From Abditibacterium sp. (lineage in GTDB: Bacteria > Armatimonadota > Abditibacteriia > Abditibacteriales > Abditibacteriaceae), in assembly GCA_965246885.1 (NCBI GenBank), contig OZ251992.1, positions 1,920,001 to 1,984,000 on the forward strand: 64,000 nt of DNA, given 5' to 3'. A program made the position numbers. Shown one piece after another: positions 42,001-48,000 of the stretch. The number at the start of each line of letters is the position of its first letter. Positions within the stretch are counted from its first letter, which is position 1.

Positions 42001-45000
42001 CTTTGCCGTCGTCGTCCACGCCGTCAATGAGCCACGAAATCGTTTTCGGCTCGGCGCGTTCGAGATACAGCACGCCGTCGAGGTGGTCTATCTCGTGCTG
42101 CACGCACGTCGCGGCTCGGCCCATCGCTTCGCCGTCTTCCAACTCGTAGGAGACGGGCTTGTTGTTCTGGTCGCGCCCCGACACGATGACACGCTTGGCG
42201 CGTTTGACGCGCGCTTGCACGCCGGGAATGGACAGACAACCTTCTTCTCCTTCGGCCTCGCCGGAGCGCAGTGTTATCTTGGGGTTGATAAGGGCGTGCC
42301 GCTCGTCGCCGATGCGGAACACGAAGATGCGCTTGGAAACGCCCACTTGCGGCGCCGCCAAGCCCGCGCCTTCGGCGGCGTCCATCGTGTCAAACATGTC
42401 CTGAATCAGTTTCTTGTCGGCGGGGGTGAGGCGGTCAACGGCCCCGGCGGTTTTTTTGAGAATCGGGTCGCCCCAGATGCGAATCGGTAGTAATGCCATT
42501 GCTGCGTGAATTTAGTTAATGCCCGCGCGCTCCCATTGGTTCCACAGTTCGGCTTGGCCAATGCCCAAGACGTTGCGAAAGGCGTCTTCGGGCGGCACGT
42601 CGCGCCCGATTTGACGGAGGATTTCTAAGACGGCTTCCTTTTTCCACTTGGACACGATGAAGTCGAGTATCGAATTGGCCTGCGAGTAGGCCAGGAACGC
42701 TCGCTCGCCGTCCACGTGCCACTCTTCGAGTTCGTCCATCGAAAGCAGCGTTCCGGCGTTGGCGGCGCGCTTGACGCGCGACAGATAGCCCTCGTAGCCG
42801 CCCTCGCAACTGGTCGCGATTCCTTCATTGAACCAAACGGGCACCAAGCGCCCTTTGGAGAGTTGGCGCACGGCGACATGGCCGTACTCGTGGGCGAGGG
42901 TGCCAAAGAGAGGCTGCGTGTCCGTCGTGTCCGAAAAAGTGTTGACTTCTTCGCCCAACACGAGCGGGCCGGTGCGGGTAGTAACCAACTTGGTAAGCGT
43001 GAGAGCGGCCACGAACTCGTTGCCGCCCTGCTCAGAAAACTGCGTGGTGTAGCGCGCAAATTCGGCTTGGCTATGCCACAGCAAGACTTCGGTATTGCCC
43101 ATCGGGATGCCAAAGTCGGCGTAGACGGTGTGTTGCGCTTCTTCGAGGGAAGCGAGCAGAGTCACGATGCCGGGGTCGTCGGGCCATGCGCGCACGGTGA
43201 ACAGTTGCGAGCGCAAGATGGCGGACGGCTTTTCTTTGGATAGCTTCGCGCGCTCTTGGAGATGGTCAAACAGAAGCTGCATCCATGCGCGGTCGGAAGG
43301 GCGAAAGGCGCCGCGCGTTTGGAGGTCGCTCGCTTGATTCACCCAGTTTTGGGCGCGGCCATCTTGGGCGAGGCGCGAGTATTCGAGGGCGATGCGCAAG
43401 GCGCCAAGGGCGTTGGGTTGGTCGCGTTGCTGGCGTTGCAAGGCGTTGATGAGGTAGGCGGGGTGGTCGGCGCCAAGCCCCACGCTTTGCTCGTCTTCCA
43501 ATTGGCGGGCGACGGCGTTTTGCGGGTCACGCGCGCGGCCCGCTTCGGCGCGTTGCAAGTCCTCGTACTGAACGGACGACGGATCGAGCAGGACGGCTTT
43601 TTTGAGTTCGTCGGCGCCCTCGTTCCACAAACCGACGCCAAAAAGCGCGCGCGCCCATTCGCGGTGACTGGAGGCAAAGGTGTAGTCGCGTCCCGCCATG
43701 CGGTCGCGCCAACTGGCGGCGAGGTTATCCAGTTGCGCATCGGCCCGTTTCAAGGGGCGAAAGGCGCTGCCCAAGCCCAGCCACAACGAGCCGGGTGTGC
43801 CTGCGTTGTGAAAGAGGAAATGCGCGGTCACGGCGCCAAAGCGGGGCGCGCGGGCAAAAGCGCGCGGCAGAAAGTCGCTTGGTCTGCGGCCCGCGTTGGG
43901 TTGCTCGTCCACGTCGCCGTTCCAGCTTTGGCGGCGTAGCGCGATCCAGCGCCCGCCCACGCGCGAGGCGACGACATCTAAAATTTCCGGCCCGTTTTCG
44001 GCGCGCTCATTGTCAACGGACGTCTGCAACTGCGCGAGGGCATCCGGCGGAGCCGCGAAGCGCGTCGTGGACGCCGAAAAACTCCCATTGGCGCCGCGCG
44101 GCAGCCACAATTCCTGCGTCCCCACCGCAAGGGAAACGGGGAAAGCGCGCTGAATGGCGATGCCGTAGGTCTGTCGCACAAGCGCCCCCGTCGGCGCCAC
44201 CGCCACGCCCGTCACTCGCGTCGAGACGGACAGCGGTGACCTGTCGGCGGGAGGAGAAGCTCCAAAGAATGACAGCGCGTTCGCGTCACCCTTGCGCGCT
44301 CCGACCTCGAGGCCGTTCAAAATCGCATAAATTGCTTGCAACTCGCGCGGCGAGGCGTTCGAGGCGGGTAGGACATCCTGCGCGCGCGCGGCGCTTGCCC
44401 CCGCGAAGAGAAGGAAGAGGAAGAGAAGTCGGAAGCGGGGAAGCATGGAAACGATGACGGCGAATACGGACGTATTCGAGCGCCGGGAGTTTGGGGAGTT
44501 TTGGGCTTCGCCCATAATAGCCAAGGCTGCTCACGCCTTCGCCGCCACCGCTTCCCCTTCGGGTTTCTTGCGCCGTTTGTTGCGGCGCAACCTTTTGCCG
44601 CGATGGTAGGCGACGGTGCGGCGGGCGATGTTGCAGTCGTACTCGTCGCGCAGTTTGGCCACGACTTCTTGGTCGGTCAGTTGCGGGTGTTGAGCGATGA
44701 TGCCCGCGACGACCTCAGTCTTGCTTTGGCAAAGGTAGATGAGTTCGATCTTCTTCCAAGCCGTCTCGATGTATTTGCCCCGGATCAGACGCGACACCAT
44801 CGAGGGATGTTCGCCCAAATCGCGCGCGAGGGCGGCTTGCGCGAGCGGCTTGAGTTGGCGCGGGTCGCCCGTCGTGAGGTAGTCCAACTGCAAGTTGCAC
44901 AGCGTGGTGATGAGGCGCGACAGGGCGGACAGACGCTGGTTGATGTAGCGAGCGCGCATGAGCAGGTCGCGGGCGTCTTCGGGCGCTTCTTTTTTCAGTT

Positions 45001-48000
45001 CCTTGAGCGCTCCCGGTTTGATGCGGTAGCGCTGGGTGTAGATGGAGTCGTTGTGGAATTGGATGGCGAGGTCGCCGTCTTTGATGGCGACGAACGCGAC
45101 GGGTTCGTCGTTAGCGGCGACCATGCGGGCGGGCGCGGCCTTTTTGTCGGGGGTTTGGCCGCTCGCTTCGTAGCCCTGCGCCATATACACGCGGTCGGCG
45201 GCTTCCAACACGCGCTCGGCTTCCAGAAGCGAGCAGCCGAAGCGCTCGGAGATTTCGTTCGCGTCGTATTCGCCGCCGAGCACGAAGTCGAGGAACTCTT
45301 GCTCGGAAACCTCGTAGCGTTCGACGAACTCGCGCGTGGTTTCGATGACCTCGCCCAAATCTACCAAAGCGCCGCCCGCGACGGTGTCTTCCATCGTCGG
45401 CGAGCGTTCGTCATCGCCGCCGCCACTTGAGCGCCCGCCCGTCCCGCGCGACAAGACGCCCGACAGCCCGCCCGACCCCGTCGAAACGAGGTAGCGCAAA
45501 AAGCGCAACGTGTCGCCGACCGGAGCGCCATATTTCTTGGCGATTTCCGGCGCGCGTTCGAGGGCGTTGGGCGAGAGAAAATCTTTTTCCCATCCGTTGT
45601 GACTCGTGATGTTGAAGACGGACAGGTAGTCCATCATCTGCTCGTCCATGAACTCTTCGTACTTTTCGCGCGGGATTTTGCCGCGCAAGCGCACGCGCGA
45701 CACAAGGCCGTCGCTGACGAGTTTCTCGAAGGACGGATTAGTTTCGAGCGAGTCCACGTAGGTGCGGAATTCGCGCTCGGTTTGGGAAAGAAGGGAGACG
45801 TACTCCGTTGGCGGGCGCCGCATGCGCATTGCCAAGTCTTCGCTTTGCCGTCCCTGCATCCGGCCAGAAGGAGTTGCCATGAGAGAATAATAGATGCGCC
45901 CGTCGGGTTTGCGGGGCGCGTTGAACTTTAACCCCCAAACATTATAAAACAAAAAGGCCACCCCATTGCATAGCCACGCGCCCCCAAACCGCTTAAAATC
46001 CCCGCAGTGCTTCGGTTTATTTTGCCTGTTAGCTTGGCGGGGGGTTTCTTCGCGCGGGCCGCGCACGCCCAAGACAAGTGGAGCGGCCCGCTCCCCGTCC
46101 AAAACGAGCGCCCCTTCCAAAGCGCCTTCGGCCATTTCGAGCCGCTTTCCCCCGACGTGTTGGGCGCGGGTCATGCACGCACCGGCGTCGCGCTCCATGT
46201 CGGCAACGACTTGCTCATCCCCAACCCCGCGAACGGCAGCCGCGTCGTCGAAGACTTCGAGACGCAGCGATTGGAACTGCGTTACTCACGCGGCTTGGGA
46301 AGCCGGTGGGAAATCGGCGCGCGCACCAGCCTCATCGCGCGCAACGGCGGCTTTTTGGACGGCCCGATTTCCTTCTACCACCGCCTCTTCGGACTCGCGG
46401 GCAACGGGCGCGACAACCCAGTGGGCCGCGACAACATCCCGCGCGGGCGCGGCATCCTGTTCTTCCAAGACGCGCAGGGCAACGGCGTCAACCAAGGCGG
46501 TGCGTTCGGTCTCGGCGACACCCAACTCGAAGCCCGCCGCCAACTCCTGTCGGGCGCGAGCGCCGCCACCATCCGCGTCGCCCTCAAAATCCCGACGGGC
46601 GACACCCGCAAAATCCTCGGCTCCGGCGGTTTCGACGCGGGCGCGGGTTTCGACGTGCGCCACAACTTCACGCCCCGCCTCGCCCTGTTCGGGAGCGCCA
46701 ATGCCTTCCTCTACGGCGCCTCGAACGTCCCAAACGCCAAACGCACCGGCATCAGCGGCGGCTTGGGCTTGGAGTTCCGAGCGGGACGCCGCGACTCCTT
46801 CCTCGCCCAAGTGGACGCCCAAAGCCGCACCGTTTCGACGGGCAACCCCTTTGCCGACAAAACCCCCGTCATCGCTTCGCTCGGCTACAAACACCGCTTC
46901 GGCGACGGCAAAACCGCCTTCGTTTCCCTCTCCGAAAACGGCGACTTCACCAATTATCACACCTCCTACCTCGCCAACATCGCCCCGGATGTCTCCCTGA
47001 GTGTCGGCGTGGAATGGCGGCGTTAATCCGGCGCTTCGGTTATCATCATCGTGTTCCTCGCTGACAAAGTGTGTTTTTCTGAACACACAAGGCGGTCGCC
47101 ACCGGAACCCCACGTCCGCCAATCTTCCGTCGCGCATTGTTCGGGCAGAAACCACGTTCGGCAGATTGGGCAAAGGGCTTGGATGAAGCGGCCCTTGTAA
47201 ATCAGCTTCTCCAAATAAAATCCGAGATAGATGTCTTGCGTTGCGTCAGGCAGGAAAGACCCATCGTATTTGGTCTCACTTTGAAGTCTGTTTTGGCGTT
47301 GCCTCTCCTCAATTGGCAGGGCGCGGGAAGGGTGCGTCCATCCGATGACCCCTGCCGAAAACATTTGCTTGATCTCCTCAATGGTTTTCTCAAGCAATTT
47401 GAACGAGGCGCGTCGGCTGGCGCTGATGTACAGCAGCTTTTCATCCTCGACGCGCGTATTTTCCACATGCGCCAGAACTTCCGCTCCCTCAAAATCGAAA
47501 GTCCCCAGTTGCGAGATATGCTCTTTGCCATCGAACTGCGACGGCCAACCCGAAAAGTGATAACGAAAGATATGGTCGTTCATGTAGCTAATAAAAACTC
47601 CGGCTGATAGCTCAGCCGGTAAAGCGCGTCTCACCTCCATTGCATCTTCGTAGGGACGCGGCAAGCAGCGTCCCTACGAAGATGCAATGGAGGTGAGACG
47701 CGCTTTACTTCCCGTCGTGCCGCCGCGCGCGTTTGATTTCGCGGAGGCGCACGTCCGCTTCGTCGGCTTCTTCGAGGAGCGACAGTTGCGGCGACAGGGC
47801 GCTGGGCGGGGCGGGTTCGCCCAGAAACTCGTAGCCGCGCCGCGTGATGCGGCGTCCGGCGGGGGTGCGGGCGAGCATGCCGATTTTGAGCAGATACGGC
47901 TCGACGACATCCACGAGGGTATCGGATTCTTCGTTGAGGGTGGCGGCGAGGGCTTCGATGCCGACCGGCCCGCCGTCGTAAATGTCCTTGATGACGCGCA

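What a model noticed while it worked through the whole genome (the two positions that open the first line are those of the whole stretch)
44531..45859. A second, deeply diverged sigma-54 with an altered RpoN box is conserved class-wide
Beside a canonical RpoN (g2131), g1781 is a full-length but highly diverged sigma-54-fold protein. Its activator-interacting region is unrecognisable and its RpoN box is changed to ARRTVAYHR. It is conserved throughout Abditibacteriia and in two other Armatimonadota families, suggesting a distinct sigma-54 class with its own promoters or activator-independent action.
Evidence so far: Pfam finds only the DBD. 13/14 class genomes tested, 43-84% identity, ARRTV[AS]YHRGKR in all 13; 7/31 in a phylum sample. 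The AlphaFold model (pLDDT 67) matches sigma-54 chains over about 460 columns, best E 5e-8, with only sigma-54 among the 23 significant hits.
(Added by a program. Inside this text positions count along the whole contig: contig position 1,920,001 is position 1 of the stretch shown here. "Call 12" and the like, gene names such as g00115 and contig names such as C1 are that model's own, and its searches are not shown. The text may have been shortened before it was handed on; [...] marks where a part breaks off. The agent that wrote the report below was given it as the finding of a first reader that could run no searches.)

Follow-up and report, generated by a model that had tools for sequence, protein, structure and literature searches.

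The report
Sigma-54 variant with shifted promoter code
This gene encodes an unusual version of the bacterial sigma-54 transcription factor that appears to read a slightly different promoter sequence and to travel with its own type of activator, so that one cell can run two sigma-54 circuits side by side.

Summary
The gene is real: window 44531-45859 (-), 442 aa, RpoN box ARRTVAYHR. It occurs in 30 of 31 class genomes and 55 of 401 phylum genomes. Region I is present: it folds as in closed-complex sigma-54, and the known inhibition residues are mostly kept. In 22 of 30 genomes tested it is the only sigma-54, and all 34 tested have an activator (bEBP).

Two new results:
(1) Promoter shift. A -24/-12 site with a purine at -21 (GGCAR-N3-YGTTGCA) lies antisense over its own promoter (27 of 35 upstream regions). 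Genome-wide it sits sense-upstream of genes in 38 of 78 hits where this is the only sigma-54, versus 3 of 41 where it is absent. The canonical TGGCAY motif shows the reverse: 1 of 30 versus 18 of 30.
(2) Activator loop. GA[FY]TDA-loop bEBPs occur in 29 of 37 carriers and 0 of 43 non-carriers.

Best reading: a working, activator-dependent, probably self-repressing sigma-54 subclass with shifted promoter and activator preference. Nothing was tested biochemically, and canonical RpoN partly tolerates the variant site.

The parts
44531..45859 (-). Divergent sigma-54 gene (P0001, 442 aa; probably 449 aa from ATG 45880)
45713..45859 (-). Region I (residues 1-49): Arg/Pro-rich N-terminal peptide, RRPP cap, helices 18-24, 28-39 and 42-49
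45158..45670 (-). Strongly diverged core-binding-domain-like region (residues 64-234): two helical halves split by a Gly/Ser linker
   Evidence: (helices); (one repeat matches, prob 56.5, E 1e-4); Pfam CBD not detected
44783..44980 (-). Extra-long helix and -12 helix-turn-helix (residues 294-359); R309, H351, S353, R357 kept; E378 equivalent changed
44594..44626 (-). RpoN box ARRTVAYHRGK (residues 412-422): R455/R456 equivalents kept, K460->Y418, Y461->H419
45956..45970 (+). -24/-12-type site GGCCACCCCATTGCA (purine at -21), antisense to the sigma gene, in the spacer of its putative sigma-70 promoter; also 36 nt upstream of the divergent DUF3187 ORF
   Evidence: weak on its own in this genome (PWM rank 325), supported by homologous sites
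45941..45946 (-). TATAAT, putative sigma-70 -10 element of the sigma gene
   Evidence: not called as a full promoter by the consensus scan
46007..47026 (+). Divergent DUF3187 gene, possible target of the site in this sub-group only
   Evidence: PF11383, E 3e-20; homologue beside the sigma gene in 4 of 34 loci

Best explanation
A working, activator-dependent sigma-54 of a separate subfamily (YH-box type). Inferred steps: it binds core RNA polymerase, recognises -24/-12 promoters and is held closed by region I packed on the extra-long helix until a bEBP pulls its N-terminal peptide. It differs from canonical RpoN at both specificity interfaces. At the DNA it prefers a purine at -21 (GGCAR) and often G at -16, where canonical RpoN prefers GGCAC; the K460Y/Y461H change is the likely cause (inferred). 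At the activator, its Arg/Pro-rich N-terminal peptide goes with bEBPs whose loop carries Asp (GA[FY]TDA or xAFDGA) instead of GAFTGA; in this genome the likely partner is the GAFTDA response regulator at C1:1164456. In Abditibacteriia and family f18 it probably represses its own gene through an antisense site over a sigma-70 promoter. Shown here: distribution, conserved residues, fold, motif positions and co-occurrence. Not shown: binding, transcription or activation.
For: Sole sigma-54 in 22 of 30 genomes; bEBP in 34 of 34; sigma-kinase-bEBP clusters in G080, G206, G321, G371. The model aligns best to closed complexes, including region I (Z 15.2 versus 11.8-12.3 for open complexes). R309 is 38/38, L24 38/38 and P16/P17 38/38 in A1. 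The antisense site is in 27 of 35 upstream regions; all 27 have a purine at -21, which the search did not constrain, and its position relative to TATAAT varies; strict score 21 of 39 versus a shuffle mean of 0.83. Independent genome-wide test: the variant motif is sense-upstream in 38 of 78 hits in divergent-only genomes, 2 of 28 in canonical-only and 1 of 13 in no-sigma-54 genomes. The canonical motif gives 1 of 30 versus 18 of 30. G013 lacks the sigma and the TDA loop, and its 6 of 6 motif hits are coding. The TDA loop is in 29 of 37 carriers and 0 of 43 non-carriers; GAFTGA is in 1 of 22 divergent-only genomes versus 14 of 15 with both sigmas. TDA loops fall in several separate well-supported bEBP clades. 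The 20 residues before the LL pair have 4.5% Gln and net charge +2.3, versus 21% and +0.7 in canonical RpoN.
Against: No experiment was done. Canonical-only genomes use TGGCAR sites in 5 of 23 hits (G036 2/2, G031 3/5), so the separation is not absolute. The promoter signal is uneven: family f34 1 of 11, G064 0 of 2, G080 0 of 2. In the own genome only 2 of 44 relaxed variant hits are sense-upstream versus 15 of 42 canonical ones, so its regulon here is small or unclear. GAFTDA works with canonical sigma-54 elsewhere (FlgR, PMC3162934 section 6; D. vulgaris table, PMC4641369), and in G027 a GAFTDA bEBP sits beside canonical rpoN genes. The L28 equivalent is not Leu (nor in the local canonical RpoN), and the region I helix is 1-2 residues shorter. 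The core-binding domain is barely recognisable. Carriers are kin, the 80 genomes were my selection, and gene starts come from my own simple caller, so the Fisher p values (4e-6, 3e-6, 7e-15) overstate.
Confidence: 0.75

Rival explanations
1. An ordinary-acting but fast-evolving sigma-54: activator-dependent, with promoter and loop differences that reflect lineage drift rather than selectivity, so it would cross-react freely with canonical promoters and activators.
For: R455/R456 and the -12 readers are kept; canonical-only genomes use some GGCAR sites (5 of 23); GAFTDA is known with canonical sigma-54 (PMC3162934, PMC4641369); G027 has a TDA bEBP beside canonical rpoN.
Against: The canonical motif is sense-upstream in only 1 of 30 hits in divergent-only genomes. 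Both sigmas and both loop types are kept together in the 8 f1 and 4 f18 both-sigma genomes with complete data. TDA arose in several bEBP clades.
Confidence: 0.14
2. An activator-independent (constitutive) sigma-54.
For: Pfam AID is not detected; the Gln/Leu-rich N-terminal peptide is replaced; L28 is not kept and helix 1 is shorter.
Against: The bypass-sensitive residues are otherwise kept; region I aligns to closed-complex structures; a bEBP is present in all genomes where it is the only sigma-54 and is clustered with it in four.
Confidence: 0.05
3. A sigma-54-derived DNA-binding repressor or decoy that no longer works with polymerase.
For: The core-binding domain is very diverged; its best-conserved site is antisense over its own promoter.
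Against: It is the sole sigma-54 in 22 of 30 genomes. Genome-wide sites are oriented sense (38) rather than antisense (4) before genes, typically 25-100 nt upstream, as promoters are. bEBPs are retained where no other sigma-54 exists.
Confidence: 0.04

Closest known systems
Canonical sigma-54 / RpoN (TIGR02395; E. coli and K. pneumoniae structures 8f1k, 7qwp)
   Same: Order region I - core-binding region - extra-long helix/HTH - RpoN domain; P cap, L25/L26, R336, H377, S379, R383, R455, R456 equivalents; GG-N10-GC sites; bEBP partners.
   Different: About 16% identity in structure alignments; below the family cut-off; K460Y, Y461H and E378 changed (each 33/33 invariant in my canonical set; for K460/Y461 the set was picked with a KYR pattern); no long acidic region II; Arg/Pro-rich N-terminus; purine at -21; Asp-bearing activator loops.
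Cereibacter (Rhodobacter) sphaeroides RpoN1-RpoN4 with cognate bEBPs (PMC11999139, passages read)
   Same: Several sigma-54 in one cell, each with its own promoters and activator.
   Different: There the reported promoter difference is at -11. Here the difference is in the -24 element, with a changed RpoN box, and the paralogue lies outside the group holding E. coli and local canonical RpoN.
Engineered orthogonal sigma-54 R456H/Y/L (PMC12096077, passages read)
   Same: An RpoN-box change paired with a changed -24 element.
   Different: Those change R456 and the GG; this natural form keeps R455/R456 and GG and differs at 460/461 and at -21.
FlgR of Epsilonproteobacteria (G5->D loop; PMC3162934 section 6)
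   Same: A GAFTDA-type loop in a functional activator.
   Different: That passage reports no altered sigma for it; no known pairing with a YH-box sigma.
Short (340-390 aa) DBD-only sigma-54-like proteins of Elusimicrobiota and Dehalococcoidia (uncharacterised)
   Same: Same non-canonical N-terminal pattern, no Pfam AID or CBD; sole sigma-54 with a bEBP in 12 of 12 genomes.
   Different: About 70 residues shorter, box SRRSVxxYR, loop GSFTGA (GAFTGA in one) in 20 of 20 loci read; a separate tree group.

Membership tests
sigma-54 (RpoN) family | Sigma54_DBD domain (PF04552) above cut-off | tested here: met
   55.1 bits vs 22.8; 38 of 38 members match
sigma-54 (RpoN) family | Full-length equivalog TIGR02395 above cut-off | tested here: not met
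   67 vs 277 bits
sigma-54 (RpoN) family | Invariant RpoN box ARRTVxKYR | tested here: not met
   Y418 and H419 in 38 of 38; R413/R414 kept in 38 of 38
sigma-54 (RpoN) family | Region I with proline cap and leucine patch packed on the extra-long helix | tested here: met
   Profile and structure alignment from residue 11-18, conservation; Pfam PF00309 not detected, and region I alone only E 0.011
sigma-54 (RpoN) family | -12 reading residues H377, S379, R383 and lock residue R336 | tested here: met
   H351 35/38, S353 35/38, R357 38/38, R309 38/38; residue roles from PMC9770992 section 6
sigma-54 (RpoN) family | Core-binding domain (PF04963 fold) | tested here: inconclusive
   Pfam negative; helical domain predicted; one repeat aligns at prob 56.5
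sigma-54 (RpoN) family | GG-N10-GC (-24/-12) promoters in the genome | tested here: met
   38 of 78 variant-motif hits sense-upstream in divergent-only genomes vs 3 of 41 in controls; bioinformatic only
sigma-54 (RpoN) family | Co-occurrence with AAA+ enhancer-binding proteins | tested here: met
   34 of 34 genomes
sigma-54 (RpoN) family | Activator carries the GAFTGA loop | tested here: not met
   GAFTGA pattern in 1 of 22 divergent-only genomes; loops are GA[FY]TDA or xAFDGA-like
sigma-54 (RpoN) family | Binds core RNA polymerase and needs bEBP plus ATP to open DNA | not testable with these tools
   Needs in vitro transcription
activator-bypass sigma-54 | Loss of region I or of L25/L26/L28/R336 | tested here: not met
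   Three of the four positions kept; the L28 equivalent differs, as it does in the local canonical RpoN

The most novel reading that the evidence does not exclude
A natural orthogonal sigma-54 system with a three-part code. The YH RpoN box reads a purine at -21, the Arg/Pro-rich N-terminal peptide is matched by an acidic activator pore loop that arose several times, and the system runs beside canonical RpoN in the same cell with little cross-talk. It has replaced canonical RpoN altogether in several Armatimonadota families.
Probability: 0.45. Interest if true: 0.82.

Novelty: new variant of a known kind. Interest (0 to 1): 0.72.

Why it matters
The RpoN box, the -24/-12 consensus and the GAFTGA loop are treated as near-invariant, and surveys filter on them: PMC12316311 keeps only activators with GAFTGA and does not mention Armatimonadota in its main text. 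This system would be missed at all three points. If confirmed, it shows that sigma, promoter and activator can shift together in nature. It makes the role of RpoN-box positions 460/461 in reading -21 directly testable, tests whether the activator loop selects the sigma N-terminus, and offers a natural orthogonal sigma-54 for synthetic biology. It also gives a first predicted regulon: ferredoxin oxidoreductase, molybdopterin oxidoreductase, MvhD and rubrerythrin genes in family f11, and membrane/envelope and ECF-sigma genes in f46/f32.

Tried and rejected
Complex prediction of residues 55-236 with the beta flap and the beta-prime N-terminus gave no verdict (score 0.00, partner fold uncertain); it is not evidence either way. 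No RNA holder was listed for the locus. Raw genome-wide counts of the variant motif were too noisy to use (94 in about 100 Mb divergent-only, 50 in about 115 Mb canonical-only, 18 in about 58 Mb without sigma-54; summed by hand); only the position-classified test discriminates. A PWM scan of the own genome found no clear regulon. Gene neighbourhood is not conserved across the phylum; the commonest neighbour, a peptidase MA-type gene, is in 10 of 34 loci. A 'sigma next to bEBP' tag for G336 was a regular-expression artefact (the only PF04552 hit there is on another contig) and was dropped. The idea that G013's antisense motif near canonical rpoN shows canonical binding was dropped: the hit is coding. 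The sigma tree left out 23 of 82 rows lacking an anchor, is a quick unrooted tree and gives no order of events. The bEBP tree has 55 rows and lacks the f34 proteins. I found no paper naming the base read by K460 (one recalled structure paper was not held), so that link is inference. Two look-ups of earlier findings returned nothing. Literature searches that listed nothing on this family.
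Full report
The gene. The ORF at window 44531-45859 (-) encodes 442 aa; an upstream in-frame ATG at 45880 matches the start of close homologues. Pfam finds only Sigma54_DBD above cut-off, and TIGR02395 is far below its cut-off (67 vs 277). The genome also has a canonical RpoN, alignable by BLAST only over residues 300-420 at 33%, and two strong bEBP hits among 7 PF00158 matches.

Range. A profile of 38 homologues finds the paralogue in 30 of 31 class genomes and 55 of 401 phylum genomes at E<=1e-25, 25 of 207 genera. A box-pattern scan of the species-level genome collection gave 40 loci whose titles name Armatimonadota-type taxa or just 'bacterium'. The 50%-cluster search gave 73 clusters at E<=1e-30, grading into a group of short sigma-54-like proteins that the Atlas places mostly in Elusimicrobiota and Chloroflexota. 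In a quick unrooted tree of 59 of 82 rows, canonical RpoN (E. coli plus local) has support 99, the short group 97 and the YH-box group 96, the last including one short-labelled row.

Anatomy. AlphaFold on 70 rows gives pLDDT 84.8. Foldseek lists only sigma-54 chains among its significant hits, with low global TM (about 0.3). VIA-align ranks closed complexes first and aligns from residue 11 (Z 15.2, rmsd 6.6, 213 residues); open complexes that lack region I score 11.8-12.3. Profile-profile alignment to 33 canonical RpoN covers 18-426 (E 4e-29). Using residue roles from PMC9770992 (passages and section 6) and PMC11839083 (passages): the proline cap, L25/L26, R336, H377, S379, R383, R455 and R456 equivalents are kept; K460, Y461 and E378 are changed; the peptide that enters the activator pore is Arg/Pro-rich instead of Gln-rich. 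The core-binding region is the least recognisable part.

Not a decoy, not activator-free. Among 30 genomes chosen as the non-f1 carriers plus G013, it is the only PF04552 protein in 22, ten of them 95-99% complete; 7 have both types and G013 has only the canonical one. All 34 genomes tested have a bEBP. In G080, G206, G321 and G371 the sigma, a kinase and a bEBP form one cluster.

Activator loop. In 80 genomes that I selected (37 carriers, 28 canonical-only including G013, 15 without sigma-54), a back-translated FGxxxG[AS][FY]TDA pattern is found in 29 of 37 carriers and 0 of 43 others. Of the 8 carriers without it, six have bEBPs with NAFDGA or GAYDGA loops, one is 72% complete and one is a contig-end fragment. 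GAFTGA is in 14 of 15 carriers that also have canonical RpoN, 1 of 22 divergent-only, 14 of 28 canonical-only and 1 of 15 without sigma-54. The own genome has one of each. TDA loops lie in several starred clades mixed with GAFTGA relatives, which suggests repeated change. Against exclusivity: G027 has a GAFTDA bEBP beside canonical rpoN. GAFTDA is also known with canonical sigma-54 in FlgR (PMC3162934, section 6 part 1) and D. vulgaris (PMC4641369, passages). PMC10714721 (one passage) leaves open whether G->D weakens canonical binding.

Promoter. Upstream of the gene, 21 of 39 regions carry a high-scoring GG-N10-GC site on the opposite strand (shuffles: mean 0.83, max 4; sense strand 2 of 39). 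A looser pattern finds it in 27 of 35, all with a purine at -21 and 25 with G at -16. The site lies over the -35, in the spacer or after the -10 of a TATAAT-type promoter, so sigma-70 constraints do not explain it. In the window it is 45956-45970 (+), a weaker variant. It was not seen in the divergent-only class genomes; G371 has a sense site 12 nt before its own sigma gene. I then tested the motif GGCARNNNYGTTGCA on genomes not used to derive it, classing hits with my own gene caller. Sense-upstream hits (10-250 nt): 38 of 78 in 16 divergent-only genomes (78 of the 94 hits fetched), 2 of 28 in five canonical-only and 1 of 13 in five no-sigma-54 genomes. In genomes with both sigmas it was 9 of 29 plus 4 antisense hits that are the sigma gene's own site, and 11 of 14 in G082. 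The canonical TGGCAYRNNNNTTGCW motif reverses this: 18 of 30 in canonical-only (30 of 42 fetched) and 1 of 30 in divergent-only (30 of 41 fetched). Dropping the G at -16 still gives 13 of 30 in divergent-only genomes (f46 13 of 21, f11 0 of 9), while canonical-only genomes use TGGCAR in 5 of 23. So -21 is the main discriminator, and the overlap is one-sided. G013 lacks the sigma and the TDA loop, and all 6 of its motif hits are coding. Weak spots: f34 1 of 11, G064 0 of 2, G080 0 of 2, and only 2 of 44 relaxed hits in the own genome. Hits within a genome and related genomes are not independent.

Mechanism. Most likely a conventional sigma-54 cycle (closed complex, bEBP threads the N-terminus, opening) with shifted recognition at -21 and a preference for Asp-loop activators. 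It probably represses its own gene via the antisense site. That canonical RpoN binds the site instead is not excluded where both exist, but the site matches the divergent-only consensus. Opposite-strand autoregulation of rpoN in rhizobia is recalled, not confirmed. Predicted targets include pyruvate:ferredoxin oxidoreductase, molybdopterin oxidoreductase, MvhD and rubrerythrin (f11), ECF sigma (f32) and membrane proteins (f46).

Known context. Paralogue-specific promoters and activators are known in C. sphaeroides (-11; PMC11999139, passages), and RpoN-box/-24 pairs have been engineered (PMC12096077, passages). PMC2715252 (passages) shows that pair substitutions at 459/460 and 461/462 reduce activity; PMC7057263 and PMC12316311 were read in passages. 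Searches listed no paper on this family; the library lacks most subscription journals. Database names are only automatic ('hypothetical', 'sigma54-like'). Verdict: a new variant of a known kind. It works like sigma-54, is homologous over its whole length, and fails the canonical box and equivalog tests. Interest 0.72.

Noticed in passing
L464-L493 (Dehalococcoidia-titled records); G401-G412: A short (about 370 aa) DBD-only sigma-54-like gene is the only PF04552 hit in 12 of 12 genomes and usually lies next to an Fe-S-containing protein (27 of 30 loci) and a response-regulator bEBP (26 of 30) with a GSFTGA loop: a second non-canonical sigma-54 group.
   Followed up: partly
L066, L071, L073, L113-L116: A long-branch bEBP clade whose loop lacks the conserved Thr (NAFDGA, GAYDGA, DAFNNA), found in divergent-only genomes of f32, f46 and f49; standard filters would call these non-functional.
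   Followed up: partly
G027 (L174, L193-L197): Three or four canonical-scoring rpoN copies plus the divergent one and 9 bEBPs; a candidate for studying cross-talk.
   Followed up: partly
canonical-only genomes: 14 of 27 canonical-only genomes have no match to the GAFTGA pattern; their activators, if any, were not examined.
   Followed up: no
G000 C1, e.g. 1257621, 1772723, 1774066, 3186432: 15 canonical-type GGCAY..TTGC sites lie sense-upstream of genes, many small or secreted-looking: a likely canonical RpoN regulon.
   Followed up: no
window 42512-44524 (-): 670-aa peptidase MA-superfamily gene directly downstream of the sigma gene, followed by def, fmt and rsmB; homologue beside the sigma gene in 10 of 34 loci.
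   Followed up: partly
window 48921-49943 (+): Tyrosine recombinase/integrase gene next to ruvB; no tRNA in the window.
   Followed up: no
L024, L033, L038, L040, L042: tRNA-Gly lies just upstream of the sigma gene on the same strand in these loci.
   Followed up: no
L175 (G183): Contig-end fragment of a YH-box sigma in a family where 1 of 18 genomes matched; may be a binning artefact.
   Followed up: partly
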